DNA of 64,000 nt from Escherichia phage 235Ecol030PP, in sequence record PP355091.1. One strand, given 5' to 3'. Under the pieces are notes generated by a model. It was not told the origin of the DNA and made no database searches. It saw nothing but the letters and a program-made list of their open reading frames with translations. A program made the position numbers and the translations under genes. Positions 10,087-31,967 of the stretch are shown here, in pieces; within the stretch, counting starts at the first letter, position 1; the number at the start of each line of letters is the position of its first letter.

Positions 10087-10833
10087 TTATCCTCGGATAA
10101 GTTTAAAAATTGAACAATTTAGCGGGTATCCTCTTTTCAGTTTAAGTTTATCAATAAAAGACAAGTTTTGATACCGCTCTACACCTTGAATAATTTTATC
10201 ACACATATCATATTGCATTTCTGCTTCTGACAACTTTTTCACAATTTTCCAATCCGAGCCTTTAAGAAGAACGTTCAATTTAACAACTTCAGCGCCTTCG
10301 GCTATGCGAGAACCATCAATACGTGCTTTAAGTGCTATAATCCTTAGCTTAATGTCAGAGGTCTGTTTTGATTTAGAAAGCTGAGAAATGTGTTCAATTC
10401 GGTTTTCACGTTTTTTCTGTATAGCTTTAATTTGATTATAAGTCTTTTTGATTTTAGCCCATTTCTTTTCATCTAAATTTAGTTTATGAACTTTTTTCGC
10501 AGATGAACGACCAATTCGCAAAGCAAATAAATCACGCTTTTCAATCAACTCTTCTAAAGTATAATCAGAACGAAATGTATTATACTTTTTCTTTACTGCA
10601 ATAACATTCCCTTTAATGTATCCAACGTTATTATCAAAACGTTCTAATGATAATTTCTCTCCTTCAATACGATTATCAAAAGGTTCTCCCGAGTAAGCAC
10701 AAACTTTCTGATCTAAAATGTTCTTAATGTAATTGAAGTCTAAGTTAAAATCTTTAGAACGTCTTTTTGCAGATGCCTGAGTATGCTCTAAACGACGTTT
10801 AATTTTACGAATTTGATTATTAGACAGCTTCAT
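10087..10833 (-). CDS. hypothetical basic protein, 248 aa (position of T4 srd)
   Basis: Lys/Arg-rich ORF downstream of modA; assignment by position only. Confidence 0.55.
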   Translation of the reverse strand: MKLSNNQIRKIKRRLEHTQASAKRRSKDFNLDFNYIKNILDQKVCAYSGEPFDNRIEGEKLSLERFDNNVGYIKGNVIAVKKKYNTFRSDYTLEELIEKRDLFALRIGRSSAKKVHKLNLDEKKWAKIKKTYNQIKAIQKKRENRIEHISQLSKSKQTSDIKLRIIALKARIDGSRIAEGAEVVKLNVLLKGSDWKIVKKLSEAEMQYDMCDKIIQGVERYQNLSFIDKLKLKRGYPLNCSIFKLIRG

Positions 10834-10914
10834 ATTTTTCTCACATCTTACGGTCGGTTAACTACTTATACTATAACATTTTTACCTTAACTTGTAAACA
10901 ACTTTATGTAAAAA

Positions 10915-10939
10915 TGCTTTAAAACTTTCATGGTATAAT
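10915..10939 (+). promoter_or_regulatory. plus-strand MotA-box middle promoter candidate, antisense to modA
   Basis: plus-strand TGCTTTA-12nt-TGGTATAAT. Confidence 0.35.
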
Positions 10940-10956
10940 GAATCTAAGTCCTTCCA

Positions 10957-11559
10957 TTATAGATTAAATCCTTCAAAATCAAGAGTATAGATAGTATATG
11001 TTGAATACTTTTTGTACTCATATCTATCTGCAATTCTAAATACACTTCCAGCTGGTATCATTACTTCTTGTTCATCTGAAACTAATTCCATATTACGATA
11101 ACGATGGCTATCCGGAAACTTAAAGTTTGGATTGTATTCTTTACAGCGTAGAGCTTTTATAGCATACTCCTGGAAATTGAATACCATAGGAGCTTTGAAT
11201 TCAAAAATAACTTGTGTGTTATACTCTAAACCAGAAGCAAAATGTAGAGCTATATTTTTATCATATGAAGCTGATACTACTTTATCAAATGTAATAATAT
11301 CAATTCCTTGATTTAACACTTGCTTAGTCTCGACTGGAACACCTCTCCAAAGAGGTTTATCGTTTGGTTCCAAACGAGATTTGATTATTTCATTTAACCA
11401 AGTATGGTCATCTGGTTTGTTGGTAATACAATGAATTAAAAGTTCAATTTCAGATAAATTAAACCCTTCAGAAAGTAATTCTTCACGAATAGAAGCACGC
11501 ACCGATGCATCCATTGATTTTATTTTAAAATCTTTTAGTTGCATTACTGAGTATTTCAT
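10957..11559 (-). CDS. modA: ADP-ribosyltransferase (R-S-ExE type), 200 aa
   Basis: ART triad: LWRG, SASYD, DEQEVMIP; size 200 aa matches ModA; which of the pair is modA vs modB is by size only. Confidence 0.6.
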   Translation of the reverse strand: MKYSVMQLKDFKIKSMDASVRASIREELLSEGFNLSEIELLIHCITNKPDDHTWLNEIIKSRLEPNDKPLWRGVPVETKQVLNQGIDIITFDKVVSASYDKNIALHFASGLEYNTQVIFEFKAPMVFNFQEYAIKALRCKEYNPNFKFPDSHRYRNMELVSDEQEVMIPAGSVFRIADRYEYKKYSTYTIYTLDFEGFNL

Positions 11560-12179
11560 TCAACTACCTCAATATCATAAACTTTAAATGTTCCAAATGA
11601 ATCGTGTAATTTTTCTTTTGAAATAGAAGTTATTTTATACTTTCCAATTGGAATCATCCATTCTTGTTCACGCACAATCATCATTAAGTTATCAGTACGC
11701 TCTGAATCTAGCCCATCAGTATCTTCATACGTGTACTTAAACTCAGTATTAGGAGAAGAAAGTATAATATCGCTGATATGGTCAGAATAATTAAAAGCTT
11801 TATCAGTTTTTAAGCGAAGTATTATTTTAGTAAAATATTCAGCGTAAGAAAAAGAACATGCTGTGAGCAAACTAGTAGTAAATGAATCTACTCTATTCGT
11901 TGAAAACACTTCTCCAACTTGTAAATCTTTAATAAGTTCTTCTGTTGATTTTGATATACCACGATATAACTGATAAGGTGATTTAGTTAAATGCTTTTTA
12001 ATGATTTTATTCAATTGCCGATGAAGAGCTTCATTCTTTTTGGCTTCCATACATTGCCAAAGAACAGACTGCTCAAAATCAGTAAATTTTTCACAGACCT
12101 TTTTATACATATCATATTGAAAATCAACGCTTTCAGCTTTTATAGATAACTGTTCAACATCTGCAAGATTAATAATCAT
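11556..12179 (-). CDS. modB: ADP-ribosyltransferase paralog, 207 aa
   Basis: ART triad: LYRG, FSTNR, REQEWMIP; paralog of the adjacent gene. Confidence 0.6.
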   Translation of the reverse strand: MIINLADVEQLSIKAESVDFQYDMYKKVCEKFTDFEQSVLWQCMEAKKNEALHRQLNKIIKKHLTKSPYQLYRGISKSTEELIKDLQVGEVFSTNRVDSFTTSLLTACSFSYAEYFTKIILRLKTDKAFNYSDHISDIILSSPNTEFKYTYEDTDGLDSERTDNLMMIVREQEWMIPIGKYKITSISKEKLHDSFGTFKVYDIEVVE

Positions 12180-12205
12180 GATAGCCTCCGTATACTTCAG
12201 AAGCT

Positions 12206-12235
12206 ATCATATCATCGTTAGGAAGGAAAGTAAAC
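12206..12235 (-). promoter_or_regulatory. T4-type early promoter
   Basis: GTTTAC...TATGAT. Confidence 0.5.
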
Positions 12236-16155: not shown

Positions 16156-16179
16156 ATTATACAATAAATATATAAAGCA
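16156..16179 (-). promoter_or_regulatory. MotA-box middle promoter candidate (TGCTTTA-11nt-TATAAT) upstream of the HNH gene and gene 56
   Basis: minus-strand TGCTTTA followed 11 nt later by TATAAT. Confidence 0.5.
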
Positions 16180-16393: not shown

Positions 16394-17418
16394 ATCTTAG
16401 CATATTTAGATAGCCGCATTTTAGCCATTAACCCCTGGGCAATATTATTTTTCATATATTCCATAATTTGTTCAGGGGTTGCACCTTCCTTTCTAATCAT
16501 ATCATTAACATCTTTTGATTTCCAGGGAGATTTATCCCAAAACATAACCCTTTCTCCTGCATCAACTAATTTAGTCATTCGCTTAATAGTGTCAGGATGA
16601 CGAGGTTCATTATCTAAAACCCACACTCGTCTATCTTTAAATGGAACAACTTCTAGGTCTAATTGACCACCCGTAATAGCTATACCATTTTCAATAAAAA
16701 GTGAATCTATAGGTCCTTCTAGAACATATACATCGCCATCTTTAACTCGTTCGACTCCATAGATTTTTGTTGCTTCAGGATAAGCTTTGATGGTGATATA
16801 TTTTTGAGGAGCATCTTTCTTTAATGCACGTCCTTGAAAAGACTCAGCTTTTCCATTAGCATTATAAATTGGAATAACAAGACGAGGCTCAGAAATTTCC
16901 TTTTTATATGTTCCCGGTGCTATGCTATTAACCAATTTAGGCCATTCGGTTGTAAACCAAAGATATTTCCATTTATCCTTTGGAATACAACGAGCTTTTA
17001 CGTATTTTATAATTGGATGGTCTTCCGCCAATTTATCTAATCTAACGCATGACGGAAGAGATTTAATTATTTTCTTTTCAGGTTGTTTAGGAAGTTCTTT
17101 AGGTTTTTCTACTGGACGACTTTTACCTTTTTCTTTTCTTATTTCAAAGATATACTCACGATATAAATCAGGTTCAAACTCCTTTAAATATATTCCGATT
17201 GGTGCATGATAATTACAGTTATAACAATGAATATTTCCTTCATTATTATCACCATAATACCATCCACGGGCTTTATTTTGGTCGGTTTTTGAATCTCCAC
17301 ACACTGGGCATCTAAACCGTAATTTAAAAGTTGAACTATTATTTACTTGTGTGAATTTAGGTAAATGAGCTAATGCACGGTATGCAAACTCATTATCAAT
17401 CCAAGGTATTGATGACAT
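16390..17418 (-). CDS. 61: DNA primase (zinc ribbon + Toprim), 342 aa
   Basis: CPVCGD...CYNC zinc ribbon, Toprim acidic motifs; size matches gp61. Confidence 0.9.
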   Translation of the reverse strand: MSSIPWIDNEFAYRALAHLPKFTQVNNSSTFKLRFRCPVCGDSKTDQNKARGWYYGDNNEGNIHCYNCNYHAPIGIYLKEFEPDLYREYIFEIRKEKGKSRPVEKPKELPKQPEKKIIKSLPSCVRLDKLAEDHPIIKYVKARCIPKDKWKYLWFTTEWPKLVNSIAPGTYKKEISEPRLVIPIYNANGKAESFQGRALKKDAPQKYITIKAYPEATKIYGVERVKDGDVYVLEGPIDSLFIENGIAITGGQLDLEVVPFKDRRVWVLDNEPRHPDTIKRMTKLVDAGERVMFWDKSPWKSKDVNDMIRKEGATPEQIMEYMKNNIAQGLMAKMRLSKYAKI

Positions 17419-31925: not shown

Positions 31926-31967
31926 AGAGATTATACTCTAATAAATTAAAGCATAATCTCTTATAAA

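What the first reader, a model, noticed from the sequence alone, without database searches (positions are those of the whole stretch)
10915..10939. Textbook MotA-box middle promoter on the plus strand, pointing antisense into modA/modB
The plus strand reads TGCTTTA-12nt-TGGTATAAT, a perfect MotA box with an extended -10, back-to-back with a minus-strand early promoter. There is no plus-strand ORF downstream, so a transcript would be antisense to the ADP-ribosyltransferase genes. It could be a chance match (my rough estimate is a few percent over the window) or a real antisense control of toxic mod genes at middle times.
Basis: seen in the sequence. Interest (0 to 1): 0.45.

Follow-up and report, generated by a model that had tools for sequence, protein, structure and literature searches.

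The report
Conserved antisense MotA-type promoter behind modA
Just downstream of the toxic ADP-ribosyltransferase gene modA, this T4-like phage carries a perfect middle-period promoter pointing backwards into that gene; the same orphan promoter is kept at this spot in more than a dozen T4-like genera, so it is almost certainly functional, but its transcript and its role have not been shown.

Summary
Window 10912-10939 (+) reads aaaTGCTTTA-N12-TATAAT, with TGG as an extended -10. It lies in the 123-bp srd-modA gap, back-to-back with the srd early promoter. The exact pattern is expected 0.04 times per window.

It is not a chance match. T4 carries the identical sequence. A MotA-box-like element, a 12-14 nt spacer and a perfect TATAAT occur at the same place and orientation in 12 named genera plus four unidentified IMG/VR lineages, while spacer and flanks have diverged beyond alignment. 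The strict motif was found in 40 of 50 T4-like IMG/VR loci, against 4 hits in 316 kb of background. It is absent from Krischvirus; RB49 of that genus has no recognisable motA.

It is not among the 58 mapped T4 middle promoters (Hinton 2010). The RB69 copy was predicted computationally in 2006 as Pm:12081.

Best reading: a real sigma-appropriation promoter starting near 10946, giving a non-coding RNA antisense to modA/modB and competing with the srd early promoter. In some genera the two start sites coincide. Function is inferred, and no transcript data were accessible.

Verdict: new member of a known kind, moderate interest.

The parts
10912..10921 (+). MotA box with A/T-rich leader (aaaTGCTTTA), centred near -30 of the predicted start
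   Evidence: Sequence. It is a 10/10 match to the consensus (a/t)(a/t)(a/t)TGCTTtA quoted in Hinton 2010. It is identical in T4. TGCTT is invariant in 14 Tequatrovirus sequences. GCTT is kept in all 16 lineages.
10922..10933 (+). 12-nt spacer; its last three bases TGG (10931-10933) form a TGn extended -10
   Evidence: The spacer sequence is not conserved between genera (0.1-0.8 bits) and its length varies from 12 to 14 nt.
10934..10939 (+). sigma-70 -10 hexamer TATAAT
   Evidence: A perfect TATAAT is present in every lineage that has the element.
10940..10948 (+). discriminator and start region GAATCTAAG; predicted +1 at A10946 or A10947
   Evidence: The G directly after the -10 and the T four bases after it are invariant across 16 lineages. 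Conservation fades about 10 nt downstream. The +1 position is inferred from the usual 7-nt distance and was not measured.
10870..10898 (-). early promoter of srd (TTTACA-17-TG-TATAGT). Its UP-element zone (about -41 to -57, i.e. 10904-10920) overlaps the MotA box
   Evidence: Annotated as a predicted early promoter in fPS-65. The overlap was computed from the coordinates.
10957..11559 (-). modA (200 aa), whose 3' end lies about 10 nt from the predicted plus-strand start; first gene covered by the antisense transcript
11556..12179 (-). modB (207 aa), covered only if the antisense transcript extends beyond 0.6 kb
   Evidence: Only weak terminator-like hairpins occur on the plus strand at +396 and +415.
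10087..10833 (-). srd, the gene served by the divergent early promoter
   Evidence: 100% identity to T4 Srd.

Best explanation
This is a genuine, evolutionarily maintained MotA/AsiA-dependent (sigma-appropriation) middle promoter on the plus strand. Shown by sequence: a consensus MotA box, 12-bp spacing, TGn, a perfect -10, no -35 element, and a G-start discriminator. Shown by comparison: the module is retained at this position and orientation across T4-like genera, with conservation confined to the promoter elements. Inferred: once MotA and AsiA have accumulated, AsiA-remodelled sigma-70 RNA polymerase with MotA bound at 10915-10921 initiates near A10946 and transcribes rightwards. No credible ORF lies that way, so the product would be a non-coding RNA complementary to the 3' end of modA and, if it extends, to modB. 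Inferred consequences are twofold. First, head-on collision and RNA duplex formation would curtail expression of the early modB-modA unit and read-through into srd. Second, polymerase and MotA bound here would compete with the adjacent srd early promoter, whose UP-element zone contains the MotA box. In Gelderland-, Karam- and Moonvirus the start sites of the two promoters fall on the same base pair.
For: The sequence matches every element of the published middle-promoter consensus. The exact pattern is expected 0.04 times per window. T4 is identical and 14 Tequatrovirus sequences vary only at box position 6 (T to C, allowed by the consensus) and at two spacer positions. The same module was found in Mosig-, Gapriver-, Dhaka-, Gelderland-, Karam-, Jiaoda-, Teguna-, Moon-, Winkler-, Marfa- and Hadassahvirus, although the intergenic DNA is not BLAST-alignable beyond srd. 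In an IMG/VR survey anchored on Srd, 40 of 50 T4-like loci carry the strict motif on the strand opposite to srd and none on the sense strand, against 4 background hits in 316 kb. Gaprivervirus has a weakened box, CGCTTTT. Column conservation looks like a promoter footprint: box, -10 and discriminator are conserved while spacer and flanks are not, and spacer length is free between 12 and 14 nt. The element is absent from Krischvirus (Phi1 and L071-L073); RB49 of that genus has no recognisable motA or middle-promoter consensus (Nolan 2006, PMC1524935). MotA homologues are widespread in the groups that have the element. RB69's copy was independently picked up by an HMM for middle promoters as Pm:12081, plus strand. 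In S16 the early -10 and the P_M -10 are 13 nt apart and both predicted starts fall at L020 position 2172.
Against: No transcript evidence was accessible. A T4 dRNA-seq study reports 22 antisense start sites, but its table is not held. The site is not among the 58 experimentally identified T4 middle promoters (Hinton 2010). No conserved terminator or RNA structure defines a discrete antisense RNA. The element persists in Hadassahvirus, where the upstream gene is a phosphatase rather than mod, so mod cannot be its only target. Some loci with Srd homologues lack it (L069, L074, L077, L079, L082). Shut-off of early transcription still occurs in asiA- and modA- infections (Hinton 2010), so this cannot be a general shut-off mechanism. 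With TGn plus a perfect -10, some MotA-independent activity is possible in Tequatrovirus.
Confidence: 0.65

Rival explanations
1. Chance occurrence of a promoter-like string with no function.
For: A single 64-kb AT-rich window has roughly a 4% chance of one exact match. The site is missing from the list of mapped T4 middle promoters.
Against: The module recurs at the same place and orientation in more than 12 genera whose intergenic DNA is otherwise unalignable. 40 of 50 loci carry it, against a background of 1.3e-5 per nt.
Confidence: 0.03
2. The block is conserved for a minus-strand purpose, and the resemblance to a plus-strand promoter is incidental. Candidates are an UP element or upstream activating region of the srd early promoter, or a 3'-end or leader element of the mod-srd mRNA.
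For: In Tequatrovirus the reverse complement of the MotA box (TTAAAGCATTTTT) lies at about -41 to -57 of the srd early promoter, where UP elements act (coordinates). In S16-type phages the block lies inside the srd 5' leader.
Against: The TATAAT lies at about -71 to -76 of the early promoter, outside any UP element. The block's position relative to the early promoter flips between genera (upstream in T4, Mosig, Dhaka; downstream in S16, Karam, Moon). In Marfavirus, dmd separates the block from srd. The conserved columns are exactly GCTT, TATAAT and the discriminator, with a free 12-14 nt spacer, which is unlike an RNA structure or a single protein site. There is no Rfam match. The block is absent from Krischvirus, a genus in which RB49 has no recognisable motA.
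Confidence: 0.08
3. The promoter is real but serves replication. Its transcript would form an R-loop that primes rightward leading-strand synthesis, as at oriF and oriG, contributing to oriA.
For: oriF and oriG consist of a MotA-dependent middle promoter that is not needed for protein expression. oriA lies near soc, a few kb to the right, and a nearby MotA-dependent transcript has been suggested as its primer (Kreuzer and Brister 2010, PMC3016281). This is an orphan middle promoter pointing towards soc.
Against: The promoter usually linked to oriA is P56/69, a link drawn from my own knowledge; Hinton 2010 lists its start at 16813. No marked A+T-rich unwinding element follows: AT is 0.73 at +1 to +60 against 0.69 for the locus here, and similar or lower than the locus average in other genera. 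In Hadassahvirus a strong terminator follows at +107.
Confidence: 0.07
4. The promoter drives a discrete small RNA or micro-peptide with a trans-acting role, and the antisense overlap with mod is secondary.
For: In Acinetobacter phages (L078, L080) the promoter is followed by a conserved non-coding stretch with a GC-rich hairpin and a strong terminator at about +107 to +130. The first bases after the -10 are conserved across genera.
Against: In Tevenvirinae the transcript enters mod coding sequence within 10-70 nt. No conserved terminator, structure (z = 0.35) or ORF was found. There is no Rfam hit.
Confidence: 0.1

Closest known systems
T4 MotA/AsiA-dependent middle promoters (sigma appropriation; e.g. 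PuvsX, PrIIB2)
   Same: The MotA box (a/t)3TGCTTtA centred at -30, 12 +/- 1 bp to a near-perfect sigma-70 -10, frequent TGn, and no -35 element (Hinton 2010). All are present here.
   Different: The site is not among the 58 mapped T4 promoters. It points opposite to all neighbouring genes, with no gene to express, and it overlaps an early promoter.
RB69 'Pm:12081' (plus strand), an HMM-predicted middle promoter in Nolan et al. 2006, Additional file 4
   Same: It is the orthologous element. RB69 12090-12096 is TGCTTTA and 12110-12115 is TATAAT, between srd and modA.
   Different: It exists only as a coordinate in a supplementary list (score 7.9, '1 bp ins'). Its orientation, conservation and function were not discussed, and it was never tested.
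Phage lambda OOP RNA / cII (cis-antisense RNA starting just beyond the 3' end of its target gene; own knowledge, not checked here)
   Same: A promoter placed immediately downstream of a gene whose product must be limited, firing back into its 3' end.
   Different: OOP is a discrete 77-nt terminated RNA made by unmodified host polymerase. Here no terminator is evident, and the promoter is timed by a phage activator.
T4 origins oriF (uvsY) and oriG (34): middle promoter plus downstream unwinding element
   Same: A MotA-type promoter whose RNA is not used as mRNA. The site is close to the oriA region.
   Different: No clear unwinding element, and no origin has been mapped at this coordinate.
Convergent or overlapping promoter interference (e.g. 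coliphage 186 pR/pL; own knowledge)
   Same: Face-to-face or back-to-back promoters that cannot be occupied at the same time. In S16 the two predicted start sites coincide.
   Different: Here the switch would be driven by a change of polymerase specificity (MotA/AsiA) rather than by a repressor.

Membership tests
T4-type MotA-dependent middle promoter | MotA box (a/t)(a/t)(a/t)TGCTTtA centred about -30 | tested here: met
   aaaTGCTTTA at 10912-10921; consensus as quoted.
T4-type MotA-dependent middle promoter | 12 +/- 1 bp between the box and the sigma-70 -10 element TAtaaT | tested here: met
   12 nt, then TATAAT at 10934-10939.
T4-type MotA-dependent middle promoter | No functional sigma-70 -35 hexamer; the box replaces it | tested here: met
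   The hexamer 17 nt upstream of the -10 is AAAATG, 1/6 to TTGACA. The sigma-70 scan did not list the site.
T4-type MotA-dependent middle promoter | The phage encodes MotA and AsiA | tested here: inconclusive
   motA lies outside this 64-kb window. 494 records, essentially all Tequatrovirus relatives, encode MotA at 95% identity or more, and MotA homologues occur in 1142 phage records.
T4-type MotA-dependent middle promoter | A MotA/AsiA-dependent 5' end in vivo or in vitro | not testable with these tools
   The dRNA-seq table of bioRxiv 10.1101/2024.04.04.588121 (GSE255091) is not held. The site is absent from the Hinton 2010 table.
cis-antisense regulatory RNA (lambda OOP-like) | A promoter opposite to, and overlapping or abutting, the target gene | tested here: met
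   The predicted +1 at 10946 is 10 nt from the modA stop codon (10957-10959) on the opposite strand.
cis-antisense regulatory RNA (lambda OOP-like) | A discrete transcript with a defined 3' end | tested here: inconclusive
   Only weak hairpins at +396 and +415, and no terminator conserved between genera.
cis-antisense regulatory RNA (lambda OOP-like) | Antisense-dependent decay or repression of the target mRNA | not testable with these tools
   Needs a promoter knockout and RNA measurements.
T4 R-loop replication origin (oriF/oriG type) | A MotA-dependent promoter followed by an A+T-rich DNA unwinding element | tested here: inconclusive
   The promoter is present. AT is 0.73 at +1 to +60 against 0.69 for the locus, with no consistent enrichment in 12 lineages.
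T4 R-loop replication origin (oriF/oriG type) | Origin activity mapped at the locus | not testable with these tools
   The literature places oriA near soc, a few kb away. No mapping exists at 11.9 kb.
UP element of the srd early promoter | An A/T-rich block at -40 to -60 that accounts for the whole conserved block | tested here: not met
   The MotA box overlaps the UP zone, but the invariant TATAAT lies at about -71 to -76. In S16-type phages the block is downstream of the early promoter.

The most novel reading that the evidence does not exclude
A deeply conserved 'anti-early' module. In this reading, a MotA-activated promoter is physically interlocked with the srd early promoter. It shares the start base pair in Gelderland-, Karam- and Moonvirus, and it shares the UP-element zone in T4-, Mosig- and Dhakavirus. 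When polymerase specificity changes, the locus flips from early sense transcription to middle antisense transcription. That flip would silence the toxic ADP-ribosyltransferase genes and the early promoter locally. It would be a concrete, testable example of how T4-like phages switch off individual early units, a step that Hinton 2010 describes as relying on 'as yet unknown strategies'.
Probability: 0.3. Interest if true: 0.65.

Novelty: new member of a known kind. Interest (0 to 1): 0.5.

Why it matters
T4 middle transcription is the textbook case of sigma appropriation, and about 58 middle promoters have been mapped, all treated as ways to switch genes on. An orphan middle promoter that is kept for antisense or divergent firing across two subfamilies of T4-like phages would show that the same machinery is also used to switch early units off or to insulate them. 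ModA and ModB are toxic enzymes whose synthesis must be brief, and the mechanism of early shut-off in T4 is still unresolved. The element is intergenic, so it can be mutated cleanly. A public dRNA-seq data set could confirm or refute the start site without new experiments.

Tried and rejected
1. Rfam scans of the window region and of four related loci gave no hit.
2. Folding the first 155 nt of the predicted antisense RNA showed no excess structure, z = 0.35.
3. A search for a plus-strand coding target found only 25-59 aa ORFs with TTG or GTG starts and no ribosome-binding site. No start codon follows the conserved AAGG at the predicted 5' end in the other genera (inspection).
4. A search for a conserved terminator or an A+T-rich unwinding element downstream of the promoter found none in 12 lineages, except a strong terminator in Hadassahvirus.
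5. NCBIfam gave no family for Srd, ModA or ModB, so gene identity rests on tblastn to annotated T4-group genes.
6. GenBank records of T4 (NC_000866, AF158101, M30001) carry no promoter features here.
7. Literature: Miller 2003, Tiemann 1999 and Tiemann 2004 are not held. The TSS table of the T4 dRNA-seq preprint is not held. Full-text searches for an antisense RNA at modA/modB found nothing.
8. A ModA-based locus search in IMG/VR returned only close relatives and was replaced by an Srd-alignment search.

Full report
WHAT IS THERE

The window comes from a Tequatrovirus, with about 98.7% identity to its nearest records. ORFs 10087-10833, 10957-11559 and 11556-12179 on the minus strand are srd, modA and modB. 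Srd is 100% identical to T4 Srd. ModA is 99.5% identical to T6/RB32 ModA.

In the 123-bp gap between srd and modA the plus strand reads aaaaaTGCTTTA (box at 10915-10921). A 12-nt spacer follows, ending in TGG (10931-10933), and then TATAAT (10934-10939). The 12 nt separate the box from TATAAT, not from TGGTATAAT.

The published consensus for T4 middle promoters is (a/t)(a/t)(a/t)TGCTTtA, 12 +/- 1 bp, TAtaaT, often with TGn (Hinton 2010, PMC2988021). Every element matches. The hexamer where a -35 would lie is AAAATG.

On the minus strand an early-type promoter lies back-to-back with the site: TTTACA 10898-10893, 17 nt, TG-TATAGT 10875-10870. It is annotated as a predicted early promoter in fPS-65. 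The predicted plus-strand start, A10946 or A10947, is about 10 nt from the modA stop codon. No credible plus-strand ORF follows.

IS IT MORE THAN CHANCE?

Within the window alone the case is weak. The exact pattern is expected 0.04 times per window, and three copies are found, two of them on the sense strand. The decisive evidence is comparative.

T4 itself has the identical sequence. The box is at about 11866-11872 of NC_000866 and the predicted start is near 11897. In 14 Tequatrovirus sequences the only changes inside the module are T to C at box position 6, which the consensus allows, and two spacer positions.

Beyond Tequatrovirus, blastn aligns only the srd part of the query and not the intergenic DNA. 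Reading the homologous mod-srd gaps directly gives these sequences on the strand antisense to mod:
- Mosigvirus JK42 and RB69: aaaTGCTTTA-13-TGT-TATAAT.
- Dhakavirus QL01: tttTGCTTTA-12-TATAAT.
- Gelderlandvirus S16: TGCTTTT-13-TGG-TATAAT.
- Karamvirus CC31 and VPA32: TGCTTTT-13-TATAAT.
- Jiaodavirus KpV477: TGCTTTC-13-TATAAT.
- Gaprivervirus VR7 and RZ: a weakened CGCTTTT-12-TATAAT.
- Tegunavirus TG1, Moonvirus CF1, Winklervirus LC53 and Marfavirus BM7: TGCTTTA-13-TATAAT.
- The Acinetobacter phage AbTZA1 (Hadassahvirus, subfamily Twarogvirinae): TGCTTTA-14-TGT-TATAAT.

A less biased survey anchored only on the Srd protein fetched 80 IMG/VR loci. Of the 50 that are T4-like, 40 carry the strict motif within 700 nt upstream of srd on the opposite strand, and none carry it on the srd strand. 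The strict motif is a box matching at least 6 of 7 positions including GCTT, then 11-14 nt, then TATAAT. The rest of the loci contain 4 such motifs in 316 kb.

I aligned 16 lineages on the box and on the -10. The selection itself forced GCTT and TATAAT. Among the columns not forced by selection, the following are conserved: box positions 1 and 6, the G at -13, the G directly after the -10, and the T four bases after it. The spacer and both flanks carry 0.1-0.8 bits, and conservation fades about 10 nt after the -10. This is the footprint of a promoter, not of an RNA structure or a coding remnant.

The G-rich start of the discriminator is the kind of sequence that, from my own knowledge of sigma region 1.2 contacts, stabilises open complexes.

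NEGATIVE CONTROL AND EXCEPTIONS

Krischvirus (Phi1 and IMG/VR loci L071-L073) keeps the modB-srd arrangement but has no such motif. For RB49, a member of that genus, no motA orthologue or middle-promoter consensus could be found (Nolan et al. 2006, PMC1524935). MotA homologues occur in 1142 phage records covering the host groups in which the element was seen.

The element is also missing from L069, L074, L077, L079 and L082. It is rearranged in L083. It is therefore widespread but not universal.

GEOMETRY

Two arrangements exist.

In Tequatro-, Mosig-, Gapriver-, Dhaka- and Hadassahvirus the element lies upstream of the srd early promoter, back-to-back. In the window, 15 nt separate the MotA box from the GTTTAC motif of the early promoter's -35 region. 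The box falls at about -41 to -57 of the early promoter, which is its UP-element zone.

In Gelderland-, Karam- and Moonvirus the element lies between the early promoter and the srd start codon. It abuts the srd Shine-Dalgarno sequence, and the two promoters face each other. Winkler-, Teguna- and Jiaodavirus also carry the element right next to srd, but the early promoter there was not clearly placed. In S16 the early -10 (TAGAAT, L020 2160-2165) and the -10 of the element (2179-2184 on the other strand) are 13 nt apart. Both predicted starts fall at position 2172. Two polymerases cannot occupy these promoters at once.

In Marfavirus a dmd gene sits between the element and srd, and the element stays next to mod. 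In Hadassahvirus there is no mod gene at this place, and the element stays next to the srd early promoter. The constant feature is therefore an orphan MotA-type promoter firing against the upstream early unit and away from the downstream one.

IS IT KNOWN?

- Table 1 of Hinton 2010 lists the 58 identified T4 middle promoters. The neighbours are Pdda.1 (11138) and P56/69 (16813), and nothing is listed near 11897.
- The T4 GenBank records carry no promoter feature here.
- Nolan et al. 2006 list an HMM-predicted RB69 site 'Pm:12081', plus strand, score 7.9, '1 bp ins'. The RB69 sequence shows that this is the orthologous element: TGCTTTA at 12090-12096 and TATAAT at 12110-12115. It is not discussed in that paper.
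- A T4 dRNA-seq study reports 150 phage start sites, of which 22 are antisense, but the table is not held.
- Full-text searches found no paper describing an antisense RNA at modA/modB.

HOW IT MOST LIKELY WORKS

Shown: the sequence features and their selective maintenance.

Inferred: MotA/AsiA-modified polymerase initiates near 10946 at middle times and makes a non-coding RNA antisense to modA and possibly modB.

Two consequences are plausible and are not mutually exclusive. The first is head-on interference and RNA duplex formation, which would cut short expression of the toxic early ADP-ribosyltransferases and read-through into srd. The second is occupancy of the site competing with the srd early promoter. 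ModA-modified alpha subunits no longer bind UP elements (Hinton 2010), which would free the MotA box in the T4-type arrangement.

Against a broad role: early shut-off persists in asiA- and modA- infections.

Against a discrete antisense RNA: there is no Rfam family, no excess structure and no conserved terminator.

In Hadassahvirus a conserved GC-rich hairpin and a strong terminator at about +107 suggest a short RNA there.

ALTERNATIVES

- Chance is excluded by the comparative data.
- A purely minus-strand role (UP element or mRNA element) does not explain the invariant TATAAT at -71 to -76, the flip of position relative to the early promoter, or the absence of the element from Krischvirus, where RB49 has no recognisable motA.
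- An origin-primer role is conceivable. oriA lies near soc, a few kb to the right, and a MotA-dependent transcript has been proposed as its primer (Kreuzer and Brister 2010, PMC3016281). No A+T-rich unwinding element is apparent, however.

VERDICT

The promoter interpretation is strongly supported by conservation. The proposed regulatory function is plausible but untested. This is a new member of a known kind: a MotA-type middle promoter in an unusual orphan antisense setting. It is not in the experimental T4 catalogue and was previously only a line in a computational list for RB69. Interest is moderate (0.5). It would rise if the early/middle toggle proved real.

Noticed in passing
window 12177-12211 (minus strand): A 14-bp hairpin. 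Its 5' arm contains the -10 (TATGAT) of the modB early promoter. Its 3' arm contains the modB Shine-Dalgarno sequence (GGAGG) and the ATG at 12179. The hairpin could form only in read-through transcripts from upstream, where it would mask the modB ribosome-binding site. This is the kind of promoter-dependent translational control known for other T4 genes.
   Followed up: no
window 10846-10858; L016, L017, L019 srd leaders; L023 (KpV477) inside the promoter spacer: A short conserved motif, CTTACGGACG (sense strand CGTCCGTAAGA[C/T]G, a possible 4-bp hairpin), lies in the srd 5' leader in Tequatro-, Mosig-, Gapriver- and Dhakavirus. In Jiaodavirus the same motif sits between the MotA box and the -10. 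Its function is unknown.
   Followed up: no
L028 about 1040-900 (reverse strand); L078 and L080: In Acinetobacter phages (Hadassahvirus and relatives) the orthologous promoter is followed by a conserved stretch of about 130-190 nt with no obvious coding capacity. It contains a GC-rich hairpin (CGGCGC-loop-GCGCCG; the loop differs between two phages) and a bidirectional terminator GGAGCCAnnTGGCTCC. This is a candidate small RNA with no Rfam match.
   Followed up: partly
window 16156-16179 (-) and 31930-31953 (-): These are the two other exact TGCTTTA-N11-13-TATAAT sites in the window, both on the sense strand of early and middle genes. They are presumably ordinary middle promoters. They were not matched to named T4 promoters.
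   Followed up: no
L029 (Klebsiella phage Kpn BM7, Marfavirus) 1051-1242: A dmd (antitoxin) gene is inserted between mod and srd. The antisense promoter stayed on the mod side and the early promoter on the srd side, which separates the two elements that are adjacent elsewhere.
   Followed up: partly
window 10909: The window and several relatives have one extra T upstream of the MotA box relative to T4 (TGTAAAAATGCTTTA against TG-AAAAATGCTTTA). It lies outside the consensus positions.
   Followed up: yes
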